64,000 bases of DNA, from NCBI GenBank assembly GCA_964607975.1, contig CAZSMF010000001.1, positions 4,663 through 68,662 of the forward strand, in the 5' to 3' direction. The notes under the pieces were generated by a model, which was given only the letters and a program-made list of their open reading frames with translations, searched no databases and had not been told where the DNA came from. The position numbers and the translations under genes were made by a program. The number at the start of each line of letters is the position of its first letter. Position 1 is the stretch's first letter. This DNA comes from an uncultured Campylobacter sp. Its GTDB lineage: Bacteria > Campylobacterota > Campylobacteria > Campylobacterales > Campylobacteraceae. Positions 36,567-43,821 of this stretch are shown here, piece by piece.

Positions 36567-36762
36567 CTATTTTTAAAGCCATAAGTGAAATTATAATCAA
36601 CAAAAATTATCATTAAGCTAATTTCGCCACATTTATGATTAAAATTTGGTAAATTTGTAACAAAGCTTGAAAAAATAACACGATAATAATAGAGGATTTA
36701 AACAGCTTTTAAACAAAGAAATGCTATATTTATGCCAAATTTTAAAAATTAAAGGAGACAAG

Positions 36763-38886
36763 ATGAACCTAGCCTCAAAAATTGCTTGGGTTTTAGTTGC
36801 CGTTTTGGCGGCGTGGTGCTTTGGCGTTCTTGCCTTAAACACAGGCGAGACTATAAGTGCAGCGTGGCTTGTGGTAGCCGCAGTGTGCTTTTATATGATA
36901 GGCTATCGCTTTTACAGCAAATACATTGCTGAAAAGGTGTTAGAGCTTGATGATAACCGTGCAACACCAGCTGTGGTGAAAAATGACGGGCGAGATTTTG
37001 TCCCAACGAACAAAATCGTGCTTTTTGGACACCATTTTGCTGCCATTGCTGGTGCTGGACCTTTGGTTGGACCTATACTAGCTGCACAAATGGGCTATTT
37101 ACCAAGTCTCATTTGGGTTGTCGTGGGCGTTGTTTTAGCTGGTGCGGTGCATGACTTTACAGTGCTTTTTTGCTCTATGCGTAGAAATGGCAAGAGTTTG
37201 GGCGAAATTATCAAGCTAGAACTTGGAAAAGGCGTAGGAAGCATTGCGATGATAGGAATTTTAGGCATTATGATGCTCATTATCGCCATACTCGCTCTCG
37301 TTGTCGTCAATGCTTTGGCTGATTCTCCTTGGGGACTTTTCACCATTGCTATGACTATACCAATCGCCATTTTTATGGGAATTTATATGCGTTTTATCCG
37401 TCCGGGCAGAGTGGGTGAAGCTAGTATCATAGGCTTTGTTCTCTTGCTTTTGGCACTTTATTTTGGACGCGATGTCGCTCAAAGTGAGACTTTAAGTGCG
37501 ATTTTCAAGCTTTCTCCTGTAACGCTTACTTATGTCATCATCGCTTATGGCTTTATCGCGGCGATTTTACCTGTGTGGTTTTTACTCGCACCAAGGGATT
37601 ATTTAAGCACATTTTTGAAAATTGGCGTTATCGTGCTTATGGCACTTGGAATCTTATATGTCGCCCCTGATGTGCAATTTGCCGCTACGACTAAATTTAT
37701 AGACGGCACGGGACCTGTTTTTAGCGGACAGCTTTTCCCTTTCTTGTTTATCACTATCGCTTGTGGTGCGATTAGTGGTTTCCACGCCCTTGTTTCAAGC
37801 GGAACAACTCCAAAAATGCTTGAAAAAGAATCTCACGCTAGAATGGTAGGCTACGGCTCAATGATAATGGAATCAGCCGTTGCTGTAATGGCGTTAATCG
37901 CTGCTGTGATTTTAACTCCGGGCTTGTATTTTTCTGTCAATGTCGCTCCTGCTGGGCTTGGCACAGCTGGTGTGAAAGATGTTGCCGAAGCAGCAGCCAT
38001 TGCCGCACAGACTATCAGCTCTTGGGGCTTTACTATAAGTCCTGAGGATATTTTAAATAAAGCCACAGAAATTGGTGAGAATTCCATACTTAGCAAAACA
38101 GGCGGTGCGCCGACTTTTGCCATTGGTTTAGCTACTATCATTTCGCAAGTGCCTTTGTTTAACTCAGGCTCAACAGCGTTTTGGTATCATTTTGCCATAC
38201 TTTTTGAAGCCTTATTTATTTTAACAGCCGTTGATGCGGGAACTCGTGCGGGTAGATTTATGGTGCAAGATGTTTTGGGTAATGTGTATAAGCCAATAGG
38301 TAATATCCAGTCTATGCCTTGGGGCATTGTCGCTACGCTCATTTGTGTGGCTGGTTGGGGCTACATACTCTATCAAGGTGTTACAGACCCACAAGGTGGG
38401 ATTAAATCTCTTTGGACTCTCTTTGGCGTTAGCAATCAAATGCTTGCAGGTATCGCACTACTCACCGTTATTACCATACTCTTTAAAATGGGTAAGGCAA
38501 AACAAGCTTGGGTTGTCATACTTCCAGCAGCTTGGGTGCTATTTAGCACACTTTATGCAGGTGTTTGCAAACTTTTACCAGCAAATGGCGAAAAAATTCA
38601 CGATGCCGTTTCTCACATTGCTTTGTGGCAAAACAACAAAGCAAAGGCTGCTGAGGCTTTGGCACAGGGATTAAGCGAACAGGCTGATAAATTGCAAACC
38701 ATAGCGACAAACAACCTCATCAACGCCTTTTTATGCGGCTTGTTTATGTTTGTAACTTGCCTTGTTTTAATCCAATGCATTCGCATTTGCATCAAGTGCA
38801 TAAGAGGCAAAAACGACATTCCACTTGCCGAAACAAAATACCTTAAAGCGAGTGCTTATGAGGGCAAGATAGCCGCACACGGATGA
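36763..38886 (+). CDS. cstA: Carbon starvation protein A (peptide/pyruvate transporter); true start ATG 36763
   Basis: DGRDFVP, GHHFAAIAGAGPLVGP, ACGAISGFH and DAGTR; AAGGAG RBS; TGcTATATT -10 at 36722-36730. Confidence 0.96.
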   Translation: MNLASKIAWVLVAVLAAWCFGVLALNTGETISAAWLVVAAVCFYMIGYRFYSKYIAEKVLELDDNRATPAVVKNDGRDFVPTNKIVLFGHHFAAIAGAGPLVGPILAAQMGYLPSLIWVVVGVVLAGAVHDFTVLFCSMRRNGKSLGEIIKLELGKGVGSIAMIGILGIMMLIIAILALVVVNALADSPWGLFTIAMTIPIAIFMGIYMRFIRPGRVGEASIIGFVLLLLALYFGRDVAQSETLSAIFKLSPVTLTYVIIAYGFIAAILPVWFLLAPRDYLSTFLKIGVIVLMALGILYVAPDVQFAATTKFIDGTGPVFSGQLFPFLFITIACGAISGFHALVSSGTTPKMLEKESHARMVGYGSMIMESAVAVMALIAAVILTPGLYFSVNVAPAGLGTAGVKDVAEAAAIAAQTISSWGFTISPEDILNKATEIGENSILSKTGGAPTFAIGLATIISQVPLFNSGSTAFWYHFAILFEALFILTAVDAGTRAGRFMVQDVLGNVYKPIGNIQSMPWGIVATLICVAGWGYILYQGVTDPQGGIKSLWTLFGVSNQMLAGIALLTVITILFKMGKAKQAWVVILPAAWVLFSTLYAGVCKLLPANGEKIHDAVSHIALWQNNKAKAAEALAQGLSEQADKLQTIATNNLINAFLCGLFMFVTCLVLIQCIRICIKCIRGKNDIPLAETKYLKASAYEGKIAAHG

Positions 38887-39101
38887 AAAAGGGTAAATTT
38901 AGAGCGTTTATAGAGCGAATTGCTAGGCTTTATAGACGCTCAGATAGGTTCGTTCATTTATTAGTCGGGCTTCCTAGCTATGATAAATATGTCGAGCATA
39001 TGCACTTGCACCACCCTGACAAAACTCCAAAGTCTCGCAAGGAATTTTTCAAAGAGGCTTTGGATAAAAAATATGGTGCTGATGGAGCAAAGTGCTGTTA
39101 A
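38883..39101 (+). CDS. YbdD/YjiX family small protein (CstA partner)
   Basis: GLPSYDKYVEHM..HP, EFF and C-terminal CC; overlaps the cstA stop. Confidence 0.9.
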   Translation: MKKGKFRAFIERIARLYRRSDRFVHLLVGLPSYDKYVEHMHLHHPDKTPKSRKEFFKEALDKKYGADGAKCC

Positions 39102-39109
39102 AAGCTTGT

Positions 39110-39241
39110 GTGCGAGGTTCGCACGGACAAAAAACATTTTTTACCGCTTTGATAGCGTTTTGACAAATAAAATTTTGCTTAAAGGCGTTAAACGCTTTTT
39201 TGCTAGGACTTTACGCAATGTGGTGAGCGTAAATGGGAGGT
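39110..39241 (+). promoter_or_regulatory. Multi-hairpin leader/intergenic region ending in a strong SD for modD
   Basis: Stems GTGCGA/TCGCAC, CGCT/AGCG, AAAGGCGT/ACGCTTTT plus T-run, and TTTACGC/GCGTAAA; then GGGAGGT. Confidence 0.5.
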
Positions 39242-39244
39242 GAA

Positions 39245-40084
39245 ATGCTTGATTTTAGCGATGAGGAATTGCTAAATTTACTTCATCAAGATGTGCCTTA
39301 CCTTGATAATACGAGCTTTGGCTTAAACATTAAAACTAGGGCTGCTTTGGAATTTTTTCCCAAAAAAGACGCCCTTGTGCTGTGTGGCATTGATGAATGT
39401 TTGCAACTTGCTCGAATTTTAGGCATTGAATGCAAATTTTCTGCCCCAAATTCAAGTCAAATTCAGCCAAAAGAAGTGTTTTTATCCTTGCGAGGTGAGG
39501 CTTTGAGCCTACTTCGTGTGGCAAAAAGTTTTCAAAATATCCTAGAACACGCTAGTAGCGTAGCCACTTACACCAACGCTATGTTAAAAATCGCTCGAAA
39601 AGTTAATCCTCAAATCACCCTGCTTGGCACACGAAAAACTATGCCCTTTGCGAAAAAACTCCTGCTCAAAGCACTCATTAGCGGCGGTGGTTTGCCTCAT
39701 CGATATGGGTTAAGCGATAGTGTGCTACTCTTTAAAGAGCATCGTTTGCTTTGCAAGGACTTAAAAGAGGACTTTGCAAGGCTTAAAAACTCCTTCAAGG
39801 AGCATAAAATCATCGTTGAAGTAGAAAATGAGGAGGAGGCGGAGTATTTTGCGAATTTAGGGGCAGATATTTTGCAATGTGAGCGGTTTGAGTGTGAGAA
39901 TTTAAGGGCTTTGGTGGGTAAAATGAGGGCGAAATTCCCGCACATTTTGCTTTCTGCCACAGGAGGCATAGATAAAGAAAATGTGGCTGAATTTGCCAAA
40001 ACGGGCGTGGATATGGTGGTTAGCACTGCAATGTATAGGGCAAAAATCCTTGATGTAAAAGCCAATTTTTCAAGGCTTGATTAA
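39245..40084 (+). CDS. modD: ModD / quinolinate phosphoribosyltransferase-like protein; start ATG 39245
   Basis: DVPYLD, GTRKT, HRYGLSD, FKEH, VEVE, QCERF and TGGI (ModD-type rather than NadC KDNH/LDN). Confidence 0.85.
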   Translation: MLDFSDEELLNLLHQDVPYLDNTSFGLNIKTRAALEFFPKKDALVLCGIDECLQLARILGIECKFSAPNSSQIQPKEVFLSLRGEALSLLRVAKSFQNILEHASSVATYTNAMLKIARKVNPQITLLGTRKTMPFAKKLLLKALISGGGLPHRYGLSDSVLLFKEHRLLCKDLKEDFARLKNSFKEHKIIVEVENEEEAEYFANLGADILQCERFECENLRALVGKMRAKFPHILLSATGGIDKENVAEFAKTGVDMVVSTAMYRAKILDVKANFSRLD

Positions 40085-40230
40085 AAACTCAAATACTCTT
40101 TTATCAGCTTTTGACTGCATTTGTGCTTTGATTTATTTAAAGCTAAAAATGCTTTCATAGTCGCAAGTATGCAAAGTTTTATCGTAAGGCACATTTTAGC
40201 CTCACTCATTTGCTTGAAATTGCTGAAATT

Positions 40231-40833
40231 TTAGAAGTTGATGTGCGTAAAAGGATTGACTATCCCTTTAATTTCATTTGGAAGTAAAGATTGGCGAATA
40301 TGCCTTGCTTTTATCTCAAACCAAGCATTTGCTTTCTTTTGCAAATCATAAGATTGTTTCACTCTCTTTGGCGGAACAAGCAGTATAAGCCTTTTGTTTG
40401 GAAAAAGTTGCCTGAATTTAACAATAGTTGAGTTCAAATCCGTATCCGCTGTAATCAAAAAAGCCTTGTCTATTTTATTTAAAAAAGCATCTTCTAAAAG
40501 CTGTATGGCTATATTTACATCACTTTCTTTTTCCTCATAAGTTTGATACTTTCCACCGCATATTTTGCATTTTGGATATTTCTTTTTAAATTTACCTAAA
40601 ATAGTGCGAACACTAGAATTTTCCAAAGCTTTGGTGTAAATTTGGTGTCGTGCTTTTTTTGCATAATCAAAATTTGTATAAGCGGTAAAATAATAAACTT
40701 CATTCAAAATATCTTCTTTGTCTAAAAATAAAGAACACATTTTGCGTAAATCAAGCCATTTAAAAGCATTGTTTTTAAGCTCTTTAAGAGAATAGTAAAG
40801 ATTAAATCCGTCTATATAAGCATTAACACGCAT
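40231..40833 (-). CDS. NYN (LabA/DUF88, PIN-like) domain ribonuclease
   Basis: YIDGFNLY, WLDL, YYFTA, EEKESDVNIA and ITADTDL acidic motifs intact; CKIC insert; visibly more AT-rich than its neighbours. Confidence 0.9.
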   Translation of the reverse strand: MRVNAYIDGFNLYYSLKELKNNAFKWLDLRKMCSLFLDKEDILNEVYYFTAYTNFDYAKKARHQIYTKALENSSVRTILGKFKKKYPKCKICGGKYQTYEEKESDVNIAIQLLEDAFLNKIDKAFLITADTDLNSTIVKFRQLFPNKRLILLVPPKRVKQSYDLQKKANAWFEIKARHIRQSLLPNEIKGIVNPFTHINF

Positions 40834-40909
40834 AAAAACCCAAGAAGTAAAGTCCGCCCAAAAGGGCGGCTACTACCATAAAGATAAGTAGGAAAACGCA
40901 CCTATTATA
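40834..40909 (-). promoter_or_regulatory. Sigma70 promoter and structured 5' leader of the NYN gene
   Basis: TATAAT on the minus strand at 40909-40904; stem CCGCCC-UUUU-GGGCGG at 40854-40869; second imperfect stem just 5' of it; no AGGA SD. Confidence 0.65.
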
Positions 40910-41013: not shown

Positions 41014-43821
41014 TTGAACGAAACGATAAAAATCATCGGTGCGAGGGAAAATAATCTCAAAAATATCAATCTTGAAATCCCTAAAAACAAGCTTATCGTT
41101 TTCACAGGGCTTTCAGGCTCTGGTAAAAGCACACTTGCCTTTTCTACGCTCTATGCAGAGGGACAAAGACGCTACATAGAAAGTTTAAGTGCTTATGCAA
41201 GGCAGTTTTTAGACAAGGTAGGCAAACCAGATGTCGATAAAATAGAGGGTTTAACACCAGCCATAGCCATAGACCAAAAGACAACCTCCAAAAATCCACG
41301 CTCGACAGTGGGAACGATAACAGAAATTTATGATTATTTAAGGCTTTTATACGCTAGAATAGGCATTCAGCATTGCCACAAGTGCGGTAAAGTCATATCA
41401 AGTATGAATTCAAGCGATATTACAAATGAAATTTTAAAGCTTCCTGTGGGGGCGAAAATCATCATCTACGCCCCGCTTGTGCGTGAAAAAAAGGGAACTT
41501 TTGCGGATATGATAGAAAATTTACTCGCCAAAGGCTATATTAGAGCACAAATTGACGGGGTTATGGTGCGACTTGACGAGGACATAGAGCTTTCAAAAAC
41601 TAAAAAACACACCATAAAACTCGTCATTGACAGGCTTGAAATCAAAGAGGACTTACTCAACCGCCTTGCTGCCGATGTTGAAAAGGGTTTAGAACAAAGC
41701 TTTGGCGAACTTGAAGTAGAGGTGTTAAATGCCGATGAGTTAGGCATTTCTAAACATTTTCATTATAGCGAACATTCGGCTTGTTTTGATTGTAAAATTT
41801 CCTTTTTGCCCCTTGAACCTTTAAGCTTTTCGTTTAATTCCCCAAAGGGAGCTTGTGAGGAGTGTGATGGATTAGGCATTCGCTACACGCTTGATATGAA
41901 AAGGCTCATTGATGAGAATTTAAGCATTGAAAATGGGGCGGTGAAAACAATGTATGGCTTTAACAAAAGCTATTATTACAAATTTTTAATAGCCTTTTGC
42001 GAACAAAACGACATAAACATTAAAAAGCCTTTCAACGAGCTAAACGAGGACGAACAAAGGCTCATTCTATACGGCAACGCCAAGCAAATCAGCTTTTTGT
42101 GGAAAAGACACCGCATTAACAAAAGCTTTGAAGGCGTGGTAAAACTTGCCTATGATATGCTTAAAGATGAAAAAGATTTGGAAAATTATATGAGCGAAAA
42201 AACTTGCAGTGCTTGTGGGGGTTTTAGGCTCAAACCCGAAAGCCTCGCGGTAAAAGTCGCTCAAAAGGCTTTGAGTGATATTTTGCAAATGAGTATTGAA
42301 AATTGCGTTGCATTTTTCTCAAATTCAGCCAAATTTGACTATTTAAGCCCTCAACAAAAACTCATCGCCAATCCCATTTTAAAGGAAATCAGCGAAAGAT
42401 TATACTTTCTTTTTGATGTGGGCTTGGGGTATTTATCGCTTGGGCGAGATTCAAGGACGATTAGCGGAGGTGAGGCTCAAAGAATTCGCATAGCATCGCA
42501 AATTGGCAGTGGTTTAAGTGGGGTAATGTATGTGCTAGACGAGCCTAGCATTGGCTTACACGAACGCGACACAGAAAAACTCATCAAAACGCTAAGAAAT
42601 TTACAAGCCAAAGGCAATACGCTCATAGTCGTAGAACACGACAAAAAAACCATACAAGAGGCTGATTTTATCGTAGATATAGGAGAAAAGGCGGGTAAAT
42701 TCGGCGGAGAAGTCGTTTTTGCAGGAACTTATGAGGATTTACTCAAAAGCAAAAGCCAAACAGCACTTTATCTTACTCAACAAAAAAGCATTTTACACCG
42801 AAAAGACCGCCCTCAAAAAGAATGGCTCAAACTCAAAAATGTTTGCGTTAATAATATAAAAAACCTCAACGCCGAATTTCCCTTACAAAATTTAGTCGCT
42901 ATCACCGGTGTTTCAGGCTCTGGCAAAAGCTCACTCATCTTGCAAACCTTGCTGCCCTTTGCTCAGGAGGAATTAAACAGGGCAAGGAAAATCAAAAAGG
43001 TTGGAGGCGTTGCGATAGAAGGGCTTGAAAAGCTTGACAAAGTCATTTACCTTGACCAAAGCCCCATAGGACGAACACCTCGTTCAAATCCAGCCACCTA
43101 CACAGGAGCAATGGATGAGATTCGCAATCTTTTCGCCTCAACAAAAGAAGCCAAAATGCTTGGCTACAAGGCTGGGCGATTTAGCTTTAATGTCAAGGGT
43201 GGGCGTTGCGAGAAGTGCCAAGGGGACGGGGAGCTTAAAATAGAAATGCACTTTTTACCCGATGTAATGGTGATTTGCGATGCGTGTAAGGGCAAAAGAT
43301 ACAACGAAGCAACGCTTAAAATCAATTACAAAGGCAAAAATATAGCCGATGTTTTGGCGATGAGTATTTTAGAAGCAAATGAATTTTTCGCCGCCGTGCC
43401 TAAAATCAAGCAAAAGCTTGATACCCTTGTGAAAGTGGGGCTTGATTATCTTACCTTGGGGCAAAATGCTACGACTTTAAGCGGCGGGGAAGCTCAACGC
43501 ATAAAACTTGCCAAAGAATTAAGCCGAAGCGATACGGGCAAAACACTTTACATACTCGATGAGCCAACTACTGGACTGCATTTTGAGGATGTCAATAAAC
43601 TCATACTCGTTTTGCAGCATTTAGTCGAGCTTAAAAATTCAGTCTTTGTGATAGAACATAATTTAGATGTGATTAAAAACGCTGATTATATCATAGATAT
43701 GGGTTTAGAGGGCGGAGATAAGGGCGGTAAAATCATCGCCACAGGCAATGTCAATAAACTCATCAAAGAGCATAAAAAAACAGGCTCTTACACGGGCTAT
43801 TATCTTAGTTTAGAGACTTAA
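41014..43821 (+). CDS. uvrA: Excinuclease ABC subunit A
   Basis: GLSGSGKS, GVSGSGKS, LSGGEAQR twice, zinc-finger cysteines. Confidence 0.98.
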   Translation: MNETIKIIGARENNLKNINLEIPKNKLIVFTGLSGSGKSTLAFSTLYAEGQRRYIESLSAYARQFLDKVGKPDVDKIEGLTPAIAIDQKTTSKNPRSTVGTITEIYDYLRLLYARIGIQHCHKCGKVISSMNSSDITNEILKLPVGAKIIIYAPLVREKKGTFADMIENLLAKGYIRAQIDGVMVRLDEDIELSKTKKHTIKLVIDRLEIKEDLLNRLAADVEKGLEQSFGELEVEVLNADELGISKHFHYSEHSACFDCKISFLPLEPLSFSFNSPKGACEECDGLGIRYTLDMKRLIDENLSIENGAVKTMYGFNKSYYYKFLIAFCEQNDINIKKPFNELNEDEQRLILYGNAKQISFLWKRHRINKSFEGVVKLAYDMLKDEKDLENYMSEKTCSACGGFRLKPESLAVKVAQKALSDILQMSIENCVAFFSNSAKFDYLSPQQKLIANPILKEISERLYFLFDVGLGYLSLGRDSRTISGGEAQRIRIASQIGSGLSGVMYVLDEPSIGLHERDTEKLIKTLRNLQAKGNTLIVVEHDKKTIQEADFIVDIGEKAGKFGGEVVFAGTYEDLLKSKSQTALYLTQQKSILHRKDRPQKEWLKLKNVCVNNIKNLNAEFPLQNLVAITGVSGSGKSSLILQTLLPFAQEELNRARKIKKVGGVAIEGLEKLDKVIYLDQSPIGRTPRSNPATYTGAMDEIRNLFASTKEAKMLGYKAGRFSFNVKGGRCEKCQGDGELKIEMHFLPDVMVICDACKGKRYNEATLKINYKGKNIADVLAMSILEANEFFAAVPKIKQKLDTLVKVGLDYLTLGQNATTLSGGEAQRIKLAKELSRSDTGKTLYILDEPTTGLHFEDVNKLILVLQHLVELKNSVFVIEHNLDVIKNADYIIDMGLEGGDKGGKIIATGNVNKLIKEHKKTGSYTGYYLSLET

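What the first reader, a model, noticed from the sequence alone, without database searches (positions are those of the whole stretch)
40231..40909. Stand-alone NYN ribonuclease gene with its own promoter and a GC-rich two-hairpin leader lacking an SD: candidate RNA-controlled toxin/defence module
Seen: an AT-rich gene with the acidic NYN/PIN residues intact (DGFN, EKESD, TADTD). It has its own TATAAT (40909-40904) and a leader of about 63 nt, GCGUUUUCCUACUUAUCUUUAUGGUAGUAGCCGCCCUUUUGGGCGGACUUUACUUCUUGGGUUUUU-AUG. The leader holds a perfect CCGCCC/GGGCGG stem, which is strikingly GC-rich against the local background. It also holds a second stem CUACU(U)AUC/GGUAGUAG that competes with an extended GUAG..AG/CU..UUAC form of the first. 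No canonical SD and no convincing partner protein gene are present. Known: NYN/LabA-DUF88 proteins are PIN-fold RNases, and PIN nucleases usually need an antitoxin or other control. Inference: the leader could be a cis-acting RNA antitoxin or self-cleavage substrate that restrains the nuclease, analogous to type III or AbiF-type RNA-based toxin-antitoxin systems, possibly with an anti-phage role.
Basis: partly seen in the sequence, partly recalled or inferred. Interest (0 to 1): 0.72.

Follow-up and report, generated by a model that had tools for sequence, protein, structure and literature searches.

The report
Conserved small RNA preceding NYN nuclease
The hairpin "leader" in front of this horizontally acquired RNA-cutting enzyme gene (NYN family) is the local copy of a small two-hairpin RNA, absent from RNA databases, that accompanies this enzyme family in many bacterial phyla, plasmids and prophages and probably keeps the enzyme in check.

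Summary
Window 40231-40833 (-) encodes an intact 200-aa single-domain NYN nuclease, and it matches the PADLOC candidate defence gene HEC-09 over its full length. The gene sits in an AT-rich islet between nadC and uvrA. It is absent from 36 congeners and from 399 of 401 representative genomes of the order.

The 64-nt leader is not a private oddity. The same layout lies beside NYN homologues in about 67-75 of 82 loci from more than ten phyla. That layout is a -10 box, a short G-free C-rich 5' tail, hairpin 1, hairpin 2, and usually a U-run. Both hairpins covary. Rfam 15 has no such family.

A model built without the window's sequence finds the window's leader as the best hit in the window. In two clades the RNA lies on the opposite strand. 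Some Betaproteobacteria carry 2-3 tandem units. One genome keeps an intact orphan RNA without NYN. A purely cis-acting leader therefore does not explain the family.

My best reading is an RNA partner that restrains the nuclease, laid out like a type III toxin-antitoxin pair but with a different toxin fold. Transcription, binding, toxicity and defence are all untested. HEC-09 gave no protection in its only published test.

The parts
40904..40909 (-). -10 box TATAAT of the RNA/NYN promoter
   Evidence: Read directly from the sequence. A -10-like hexamer sits at the same distance in front of the RNA in the relatives. Across 76 loci, -10-like hexamers peak where they end 11-16 nt before hairpin 1.
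40850..40897 (-). Small RNA unit (5' tail + hairpin 1 + hairpin 2), the local member of the NYN-associated RNA family
   Evidence: Model R2 was built without this sequence. It matches 40850-40897 (-) at 19.3 bits, E 0.013, which is the best hit in the window. The unit is nearly identical to the L086 leader, which scores 37 bits, E 3e-7.
40892..40897 (-). Single-stranded 5' tail (G)UUUUCC; likely transcript start near 40897
   Evidence: Its position relative to the -10 box fits a start here. In 83 units the five bases before hairpin 1 are almost free of G (6 of 415), and the last base is C in 76 of 83. The transcript start itself is inferred, not mapped.
40870..40891 (-). Hairpin 1, CUACU(U)AUC / GGUAGUAG, with one bulged U
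   Evidence: In the Campylobacter/Helicobacter group, 3 of its 8 pairs show changes on both sides.
40854..40869 (-). Hairpin 2, CCGCCC-UUUU-GGGCGG, terminator-like
   Evidence: It is 100% paired in 11 related leaders, and 4 of its 9 pairs change on both sides.
40834..40853 (-). U-rich tract and weak ribosome-binding site (GGG at 40838-40840); only 20 nt between hairpin 2 and the AUG
   Evidence: There is no room here for a separate promoter. In 64 of 78 terminal units, at least 5 of the 8 bases after hairpin 2 are U.
40231..40833 (-). NYN-domain nuclease gene, 200 aa, HEC-09 family
   Evidence: Pfam NYN. PADLOC HEC-09, E 3e-56, covering model positions 3-189 of 203. Invariant acidic residues. 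NYN fold.

Best explanation
The leader is the local, slightly weakened copy of a conserved small RNA of about 50-65 nt that travels together with HEC-09-type single-domain NYN nuclease genes as one mobile cassette.

Proposed mechanism: transcription starts about 7 nt after TATAAT, near 40897. The RNA opens with a short G-free, C-rich single-stranded tail, followed by hairpin 1 and the GC-rich hairpin 2. Hairpin 2 plus the U-rich tract stops or attenuates most transcripts 20 nt before the AUG. The short RNA is therefore made in excess, and the nuclease is made only from read-through transcripts with a weak ribosome-binding site.

I propose that the RNA is the nuclease's cognate partner and restrains it in two ways. 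First, it limits synthesis in cis. Second, and most likely, the NYN protein binds the RNA, and perhaps cuts it in the conserved tail, so that it is held inactive. This is the logic of a type III toxin-antitoxin or abortive-infection pair, with an NYN fold in place of ToxN.

Shown here: conservation, covariation, co-occurrence, independence of orientation, tandem arrays, promoter position, and the lack of a second promoter.

Inferred only: transcription and termination, binding, cleavage, toxicity, and any anti-phage or plasmid-addiction role.

The confidence of 0.5 is for 'RNA partner that restrains the nuclease'. I put about 0.9 on the narrower statement that this is a real, conserved, NYN-linked structured RNA.
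For: Conservation near the window.
- The leader is conserved upstream of homologues with 98, 83, 67, 66 and 64% protein identity. Hairpin 1 is better conserved there than the coding sequence, and hairpin 2 shows compensatory changes.

Conservation across phyla.
- The same architecture lies upstream of homologues in Alpha-, Beta- and Gammaproteobacteria, Campylobacterota, Bdellovibrionota, Rickettsiales, Bacteroidota, Chlamydiota, Verrucomicrobiota, Actinomycetota and spirochaetes.
- Under strict criteria, 54 of 82 NYN loci have a unit on the gene strand within 50 nt of the start, and 13 more have one on the other strand. Controls give 4 of 152 ORFs, and one of those four is an NYN gene.

Covariation.
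- Alphaproteobacterial set, aligned by sequence only: 97% of cells paired, 12 of 20 pairs changed on both sides, 0 of 500 shuffles reach this, slid controls 33-45% paired.
- Campylobacter/Helicobacter set: 97.7% paired, 7 of 17 pairs changed on both sides.
- Opposite-strand set: 89.6% paired, 7 of 12 pairs changed on both sides.

Homology of the window's own leader.
- R2, built without the window, finds the window's leader.
- R1, built from alphaproteobacteria only, finds other clades at E 5e-5 to 3e-3, including a minus-strand copy.

Evidence that the RNA is more than a leader.
- In Actinomycetota and Saprospiraceae the RNA is divergent from NYN, and no gene follows it on its own strand.
- Tandem arrays of 2-3 units occur, and the internal units lack the U-run.
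- One genome has an intact orphan RNA with its own -10 box and compensatory changes, but no NYN.
- Units on the gene strand end 6-45 nt before the start codon, which leaves no room for a second promoter.
- Hairpin 2 is a terminator in most clades. In Campylobacter prophage copies it lacks the U-run and instead overlaps the ribosome-binding site. What is conserved is therefore the hairpin itself, not one regulatory device.

Genomic context.
- Homologues lie in prophages, next to conjugative-transfer genes (TraG, relaxase), in plasmid-like loci and on 3.5-4.3 kb ColE1-type plasmids.
- HEC-09 was defined by being embedded in defence systems.
Against: - No transcript data could be obtained for this organism or for any relative.
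- HEC-09, cloned with its native upstream region, protected against none of the phages tested. Neither toxicity nor RNA binding has ever been shown for this family.
- The window has one RNA unit, not a repeat array.
- The window's allele has a bulged hairpin 1. Its minimum-free-energy fold is the non-conserved alternative.
- The R2 match to the window is only borderline (E 0.013, and calibration is rough).
- Alignment A9 was fitted to the model, so its pair counts lean towards the structure.
- The broad survey of the architecture rests on per-sequence folding, which finds hairpins by construction. Only the control-ORF comparison and the sequence-only alignments are unbiased.
- The strand call for the divergent copies rests on the tail, the U-run, G-U pairs and CM hits, not on data.
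Confidence: 0.5

Rival explanations
1. Purely cis-acting expression leader. The promoter, 5' hairpins and attenuator or RBS-occluding hairpin only keep expression of a potentially harmful nuclease low and stabilise its mRNA. The RNA and the protein do not interact.
For: - On the gene strand the unit always lies directly before the start codon.
- Hairpin 2 is either an intrinsic terminator or overlaps the ribosome-binding site.
- HEC-09 showed no phenotype.
- In proteobacterial copies the C-rich tail can pair with the GGGA/GGAG ribosome-binding site (by inspection).
Against: - 11-13 loci carry the unit on the opposite strand with no gene after it.
- Arrays of 2-3 units exist.
- An intact orphan copy exists without NYN.
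- The tail is conserved in Bacteroidota as well. By general knowledge, not tested here, Bacteroidota make little use of Shine-Dalgarno pairing.
- The same RNA stays with one protein family across phyla that differ widely in expression signals.
Confidence: 0.2
2. Autoregulatory substrate. NYN cleaves its own leader, as RNase III does on rnc, RNase E on rne and Regnase-1 on its own mRNA (comparisons from general knowledge). This sets its own level. The RNA does not inhibit the protein.
For: - The architecture is the same as for the best explanation.
- The conserved single-stranded tail next to a helix would make a plausible cleavage site.
- In Campylobacter prophage copies the RNA and NYN are co-transcribed with no terminator between them.
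Against: Divergent and orphan copies cannot regulate NYN mRNA in cis. Arrays are not needed for feedback control.
Confidence: 0.15
3. The RNA is a positive cofactor, scaffold or sensor. NYN and the RNA would form an RNA-protein complex whose activity or target choice needs the RNA, for example a defence switch triggered when a phage alters the RNA.
For: - RNA and NYN co-occur strictly across phyla.
- The RNA is an independent gene in some clades.
- The context is defence islands and mobile elements.
Against: - The tail is conserved rather than variable, so it is not a programmable guide.
- An orphan RNA without NYN is hard to explain.
- No data support this reading.
Confidence: 0.1
4. Chance hairpins, or an ordinary terminator of a neighbouring gene.
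For: Hairpin 2 matches a simple terminator pattern.
Against: - The upstream neighbour uvrA is on the other strand, so no gene lies upstream on the minus strand whose transcript hairpin 2 could terminate.
- The element is conserved and covaries in distant relatives.
- The frequency is 54 of 82 NYN loci against 4 of 152 controls.
Confidence: 0.02

Closest known systems
HEC-09 (PADLOC candidate defence gene; Payne et al., bioRxiv 10.1101/2024.01.29.577857)
   Same: The protein matches the HEC-09 model end to end (E 3e-56). It is a single-domain NYN/MARF1-like nuclease with the conserved aspartates, and it is carried by mobile elements and defence islands.
   Different: HEC-09 was described as a protein-only candidate. 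No accompanying RNA is mentioned, and no phage protection was seen. The conserved RNA partner is what this report adds.
Type III toxin-antitoxin / abortive-infection systems (ToxIN, CptIN, TenpIN; from general knowledge)
   Same: The order is the same: promoter, structured RNA, terminator, endoribonuclease gene, so the RNA is made in excess over the nuclease. Some relatives carry tandem RNA arrays. Both occur on plasmids and prophages.
   Different: The toxin fold is NYN (PIN-like metal-dependent), not ToxN/AbiQ. The RNA is usually one two-hairpin unit of about 60 nt rather than 2-5 short pseudoknot repeats. In two clades it lies on the opposite strand. Processing, binding, toxicity and abortive infection are all unshown.
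AbiF / RCd22-type RNA-controlled HEPN toxin (abiF motif, Rfam RF03085; bioRxiv 10.1101/2025.04.15.648962, title and abstract seen; paper not read)
   Same: A conserved structured RNA lies just upstream of a single nuclease gene on a mobile element and is proposed to act as an RNA antitoxin.
   Different: The protein family differs (HEPN/Abi_2 against NYN). The RNA also differs: no Rfam family matched the leader at E up to 10 in the window or up to 1 in 20 homologue loci.
Self-regulating RNase leaders (rnc, rne 5' UTR; Regnase-1 stem-loops; from general knowledge)
   Same: A stem-loop in the nuclease's own transcript could be its substrate. Regnase-1 is also NYN/PIN-like and recognises stem-loops.
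   Different: Those elements act only in cis on their own mRNA. This RNA also occurs as a separate, divergent or orphan gene and in arrays.

Membership tests
NYN domain (Pfam PF01936) / HEC-09 | Profile match above the curated threshold; full-length match to the HEC-09 model | tested here: met
   PF01936: 42.8 bits against a cut-off of 24.2. PDLC04163 HEC-09: E 3.3e-56, residues 2-189 on model positions 3-189 of 203.
NYN domain (Pfam PF01936) / HEC-09 | Conserved acidic metal-binding residues and the NYN/PIN-like fold | tested here: met
   D8, E100, E101, D105 and D132 are invariant and D130 nearly so in 28 homologues. The model has pLDDT 95.9. Best PDB matches: 2qip (E 6e-8) and MARF1 NYN 5yaa (E 3e-4).
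NYN domain (Pfam PF01936) / HEC-09 | Ribonuclease activity; anti-phage function | not testable with these tools
The published screen of HEC-09 found no defence.
Type III toxin-antitoxin | Toxin of the ToxN/AbiQ (or CptN/TenpN) family | tested here: not met
   The protein is NYN. PADLOC, Pfam and the fold search give no ToxN-like match.
Type III toxin-antitoxin | Antitoxin encoded as tandem direct repeats upstream of the toxin | tested here: not met
   The window holds a single unit (R2 finds one significant hit). Arrays of 2-3 units exist only in some betaproteobacterial loci and, with 2 units, in one Saprospiraceae locus.
Type III toxin-antitoxin | Terminator between the RNA and the toxin gene, with no separate toxin promoter | tested here: met
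   The terminator-like hairpin at 40869-40854 lies 20 nt before the AUG. In 64 of 78 terminal units, at least 5 of the 8 bases after hairpin 2 are U. Actual termination has not been measured.
Type III toxin-antitoxin | Toxin processes and binds the RNA; the RNA neutralises toxicity | not testable with these tools
   Needs expression, binding and cleavage assays.
AbiF-type RNA/HEPN module (Rfam abiF motif RF03085) | Match to the abiF RNA motif and to an Abi_2/HEPN protein | tested here: not met
   No Rfam match on the leader. The protein is NYN.
NYN-associated two-hairpin RNA (family proposed here; not in Rfam 15) | G-free C-rich 5' tail, then hairpin 1, then hairpin 2, beside a HEC-09-type NYN gene, detectable by a covariance model built from relatives | tested here: met
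   R2, built without the window, hits 40850-40897 (-) at 19.3 bits, E 0.013, the top hit in the window. The leader is nearly identical to L086's, which scores E 3e-7. The tail is UUUUCC and hairpin 1 has one bulge, so this is a weak member.
Ordinary intrinsic terminator of a neighbouring gene | Lies at the 3' end of a co-directional gene | tested here: not met
   The upstream neighbour uvrA is on the opposite strand, and the hairpin lies between a -10 box and the NYN start codon.

The most novel reading that the evidence does not exclude
HEC-09-type NYN nucleases and this two-hairpin RNA of about 60 nt form a very widespread, unrecognised class of RNA-antitoxin (type III-like) toxin-antitoxin or abortive-infection modules with a new toxin fold. 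One hairpin RNA would serve at once as antitoxin, as transcription terminator and, through its conserved tail, as the nuclease's processing site. The module would move as a unit between prophages, conjugative elements, small plasmids and chromosomes across more than ten phyla.
Probability: 0.2. Interest if true: 0.85.

Novelty: new variant of a known kind. Interest (0 to 1): 0.6.

Why it matters
If the RNA does control the nuclease, this would be a new and phylogenetically very broad family of RNA-protein toxin or defence modules.

- It would explain how a stand-alone NYN RNase can be carried safely with no protein antitoxin.
- It might explain why HEC-09 looked inert when tested as a protein-only gene in a foreign host.
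- It would add a structured RNA family to the databases.
- The cassette is small (about 0.75 kb) and its parts are sharply defined, so the hypothesis can be tested directly in E. coli K-12.

Even on the most modest reading, the result corrects annotation. The 'terminator' or 'leader' next to these genes is a conserved RNA element, and in some clades it is a separate RNA gene.

Tried and rejected
1. RNA-seq evidence.
- Only DNA metagenome runs hold the window.
- No RNA run holds the Marinovum locus.
- The runs labelled 'RNA?' for the Brachyspira locus behave like DNA assemblies, with long contigs of even depth, and say nothing about transcripts.

2. One alignment across all clades.
- MAFFT misaligns the hairpins between clades.
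- Padding the loops with N did not hold the columns.
- I therefore ran covariation tests per clade, and the pan-clade picture rests on per-sequence folds plus a control comparison.

3. RNA copies on their own in phages (a lead from earlier notes).
- Five pattern scans of viral contigs found only Campylobacter prophage copies that carry NYN, or chance matches inside coding sequence.
- BLAST of the enterobacterial plasmid leader against phage genomes found only a chance terminator-like match.
- The lead is neither confirmed nor refuted, because the patterns were too crude.

4. Other copies in the window's own genome: none convincing (best 17.8 bits, E 0.36).

5. Insertion boundaries from congeners. 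Homology to the window stops about 30 nt upstream of uvrA, and nadC is not adjacent in the relatives, so no clean empty site could be reconstructed.

6. The tail as an anti-Shine-Dalgarno sequence. This is plausible by eye in some Proteobacteria. I rejected it as the general function, because the tail is also conserved in Bacteroidota, in internal array units and in divergent copies.

7. The 42-aa ORF downstream of NYN as a protein partner. It has no family hit and is not conserved in other loci.

Full report
**What is there.**

On the minus strand, TATAAT (40909-40904) is followed by a 64-nt leader and a 200-codon ORF at 40833-40231. The ORF lies between nadC (39233-40084, +) and uvrA (41014-43821, +).

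The ORF is a bona fide NYN domain.
- Pfam PF01936 scores 42.8 bits against a cut-off of 24.2.
- It matches the PADLOC model HEC-09 over its whole length, E 3e-56.
- Among 28 homologues, D8, G9, N11, E100, E101, K102, D105 and D132 are invariant.
- An AlphaFold2 model has pLDDT 95.9. It matches the LabA-like protein 2qip and the MARF1 NYN domain.

The gene has 29-32% GC against about 40% in the flanks. It is absent from 36 genomes of the same genus and from 399 of 401 representative genomes of the order. In congeners, homology to the window stops about 30 nt before uvrA. This is a horizontally acquired single-gene cassette.

**The leader.**

I propose these parts:
- a tail (G)UUUUCC at 40897-40892;
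- hairpin 1 at 40891-40870 (CUACU[U]AUC / GGUAGUAG, one bulged U);
- hairpin 2 at 40869-40854 (CCGCCC-UUUU-GGGCGG);
- a U-rich tract;
- a weak GGG 5-7 nt before the AUG.

The terminator scan flags hairpin 2. The leader folds better than shuffles, z = -2.9. In 8 of 10 related leaders it is hairpin 1 plus hairpin 2. The competition is therefore a peculiarity of this allele, caused by the bulge.

**Comparative test.**

The closest homologues (98, 83, 67, 66 and 64% protein identity) all carry the same element at the same place. In it, a -10 box is followed 6-10 nt later by the tail, hairpin 1 and hairpin 2. Hairpin 1 is nearly invariant in sequence. Hairpin 2 changes by compensatory substitutions: CCGCCC/GGGCGG, CCACCC/GGGUGG, CCGAGCCC/GGGCUUGG.

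I then extracted the upstream DNA of 83 homologue loci from many phyla. The same architecture appears in Proteobacteria, Campylobacterota, Bdellovibrionota, Rickettsiales, Bacteroidota, Chlamydiota, Verrucomicrobiota, Actinomycetota and spirochaetes.

The architecture is:
- a 5' tail that is almost free of G (6 G in 415 positions) and ends in C in 76 of 83 units;
- a 7-9 bp hairpin;
- a linker of 0-3 nt;
- a 6-13 bp hairpin;
- in 64 of 78 terminal units, at least 5 U in the next 8 nt.

With strict automatic criteria, 54 of 82 NYN loci have such a unit on the gene strand ending within 50 nt of the start. Another 13 have it only on the other strand. Controls give 4 of 152 ORFs from the same loci, and one of those four is itself an NYN gene. 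-10-like hexamers peak where they end 11-16 nt before hairpin 1, so the RNA should begin with the tail.

**Covariation.**

| Set | How aligned | Cells paired | Pairs changed on both sides | Shuffles reaching the observed both-sides count | Slid controls paired |
|---|---|---|---|---|---|
| 12 alphaproteobacterial units | sequence only | 97% | 12 of 20 | 0 of 500 | 33-45% |
| 11 Campylobacter/Helicobacter units | fitted to model R2 | 97.7% | 7 of 17 | 2 of 500 | 23-52% |
| 12 opposite-strand units | sequence only | 89.6% | 7 of 12 | 7 of 500 | 33-60% |

- Model R2 was built from eight Campylobacter/Helicobacter leaders. The window, L086 and L004 were left out.
- R2 recovers L004 (E 6e-8), L086 (E 3e-7) and the window's leader (40850-40897, 19.3 bits, E 0.013). 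The last is the top hit in the window.
- Model R1, built from alphaproteobacteria alone, reaches other clades at E 5e-5 to 3e-3, including a minus-strand actinobacterial copy.
- Rfam 15 has nothing on the leader in the window (E up to 10) or in 20 homologue loci (E up to 1).
- Full-text searches found no paper that links NYN genes with an RNA motif or with type III toxin-antitoxin systems.

**Why it is more than a leader.**

1. In Actinomycetota and Saprospiraceae the unit lies on the opposite strand, 30-60 nt from the NYN start. The gene beyond it is co-directional with NYN, so the RNA precedes no gene.
2. Several betaproteobacterial loci have two or three units in tandem, and one Saprospiraceae locus has two. 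Only the last unit carries the U-run.
3. Searching 401 genomes of the order with R2 found matches in two genomes where the protein search had found no NYN.
   - One match is an intact RNA with its own TATAAT and compensatory changes in both hairpins but no NYN ORF. It lies next to an AAA_21 + RloB pair.
   - A second is an RNA followed by an NYN remnant of 32 codons.
   - A third is a decayed copy.
4. Hairpin 2 is a terminator in most clades. In Campylobacter prophage copies it has no U-run and overlaps the ribosome-binding site. The conserved feature is therefore the hairpin, not one regulatory device.
5. On the gene strand the unit ends 6-45 nt before the start codon, so NYN can only be made by read-through.

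**Context.**

Campylobacter-group homologues lie in:
- prophages with ERF/YqaJ/SSB modules, Mu-like prophages, and prophages with pRha/ANT genes;
- a locus next to a TraG conjugative-transfer gene and ParE-type toxin genes;
- a locus beside a relaxase gene;
- a Rep3/NikA plasmid-like locus.

The plasmid collection holds 81 records. They include 3.5-4.3 kb ColE1-type plasmids of E. coli, Klebsiella and Salmonella. Apart from replication functions, their annotated cargo is mainly an HTH protein and NYN (the Klebsiella plasmid L118 has a second HTH gene). These plasmids have a longer structured leader that ends in a strong terminator.

HEC-09 was defined as a gene embedded in Hma defence systems. 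It gave no protection against the phages tested, and the paper mentions no RNA.

**Interpretation.**

The best-supported reading is that the RNA and the nuclease form a two-part module in which the RNA restrains the nuclease. The cis part follows from the anatomy: an attenuator or an occluded ribosome-binding site, with read-through as the only route to expression. The trans part (binding and perhaps processing in the tail, as in type III systems) is inference from the divergent, arrayed and orphan copies. I give this 0.5.

The rivals are:
- a purely cis-acting leader, 0.2;
- an autoregulatory substrate, 0.15;
- a positive cofactor or sensor, 0.1;
- chance, 0.02.

The module works like a type III or AbiF-type system but is a member of neither. 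The toxin fold and the RNA differ, and the window has one unit rather than a repeat array.

**Caveats.**

- No transcript data exist for any carrier.
- Model E-values are rough.
- Alignment A9 is fitted to its model.
- The pan-clade survey uses per-sequence folding.
- The strand of the divergent copies is inferred.
- The window's copy is a weak member.

**Earlier notes of this scan.**

At least eight other windows led earlier agents to the same module. I treated those notes as leads only.
- The family-level claims that I re-derived here agree with them.
- I could not reproduce their claim that lytic phages carry the RNA alone, because my patterns were too crude.
- One note carries a later check that rated the bold toxin-antitoxin reading at 6 in 100. 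That made me lower my own odds for that reading to 0.2.

Noticed in passing
L261:1490-1560 (genome G143, same family): An intact orphan copy of the RNA (TATAAT, tail, hairpin 1 UUAAUAUC/GAUAUUAA, hairpin 2 CCGAGUUCC/GGGACUUGG). No NYN ORF follows it. About 130 nt downstream lies an AAA_21 ATPase + RloB/TOPRIM pair, which resembles an AbiL-like defence pair.
   Followed up: partly
L260 and L262 (genome G100, same family): L260 has a full RNA unit followed by an NYN remnant that is homologous for only the first 32 codons. L262 has a decayed RNA in which hairpin 1 is kept and the 5' arm of hairpin 2 is replaced. Both look like stages of cassette decay.
   Followed up: partly
L123:8823-9030 (IMG/VR Campylobacter prophage contig): The 5' half of the RNA unit is separated from the NYN start by an insertion of about 180 nt of GC-rich hairpin-forming DNA inside hairpin 2. 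This may be a small mobile repeat.
   Followed up: no
L117:1190-1280 and L118:975-1060 (3.5-4.2 kb ColE1-type plasmids): There are two long perfect palindromes between the divergent HTH gene and the NYN leader: GTTACTACCTAACTACTCTTA..TAAGAGTAGTTAGGTAGTAAC and GGATGACAT..ATGTCATCC. They are probably operators for the HTH protein. The annotated NYN start adds about 22 non-homologous residues.
   Followed up: no
window 40081-40209 (-): A 42-aa ORF lies between the NYN stop and the end of nadC. A 44-aa gene call lies at the equivalent position in L084 (2781-2915), but I did not compare the two sequences. It has no Pfam hit and is not conserved at other NYN loci.
   Followed up: partly
L084:2146-2784 versus window 40231-40833: The 98%-identical protein from other metagenomes is 212 aa, not 200 aa. 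The difference is a 12-residue C-terminal extension, so the stop codon position varies within the species.
   Followed up: no
L058:3301-3654, L005:3806-3879, L008:1681-1752: In these loci the NYN cassette lies within 0.3-1.5 kb of a tmRNA gene or a tRNA gene. These are typical integration sites for genomic islands.
   Followed up: no
L051:2877-3678 (Brachyspira hampsonii): In four public runs the leader plus NYN forms a separate 808-nt assembly unitig bounded by 32-nt junction nodes. This suggests that the cassette is present in some strains and absent in others. The runs labelled 'RNA?' look like DNA.
   Followed up: partly
window 38883-39101 (+): A 72-aa ORF overlaps the stop of the cstA-like gene (36721-38886) by 4 nt, the usual small partner gene position. 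I did not examine it.
   Followed up: no
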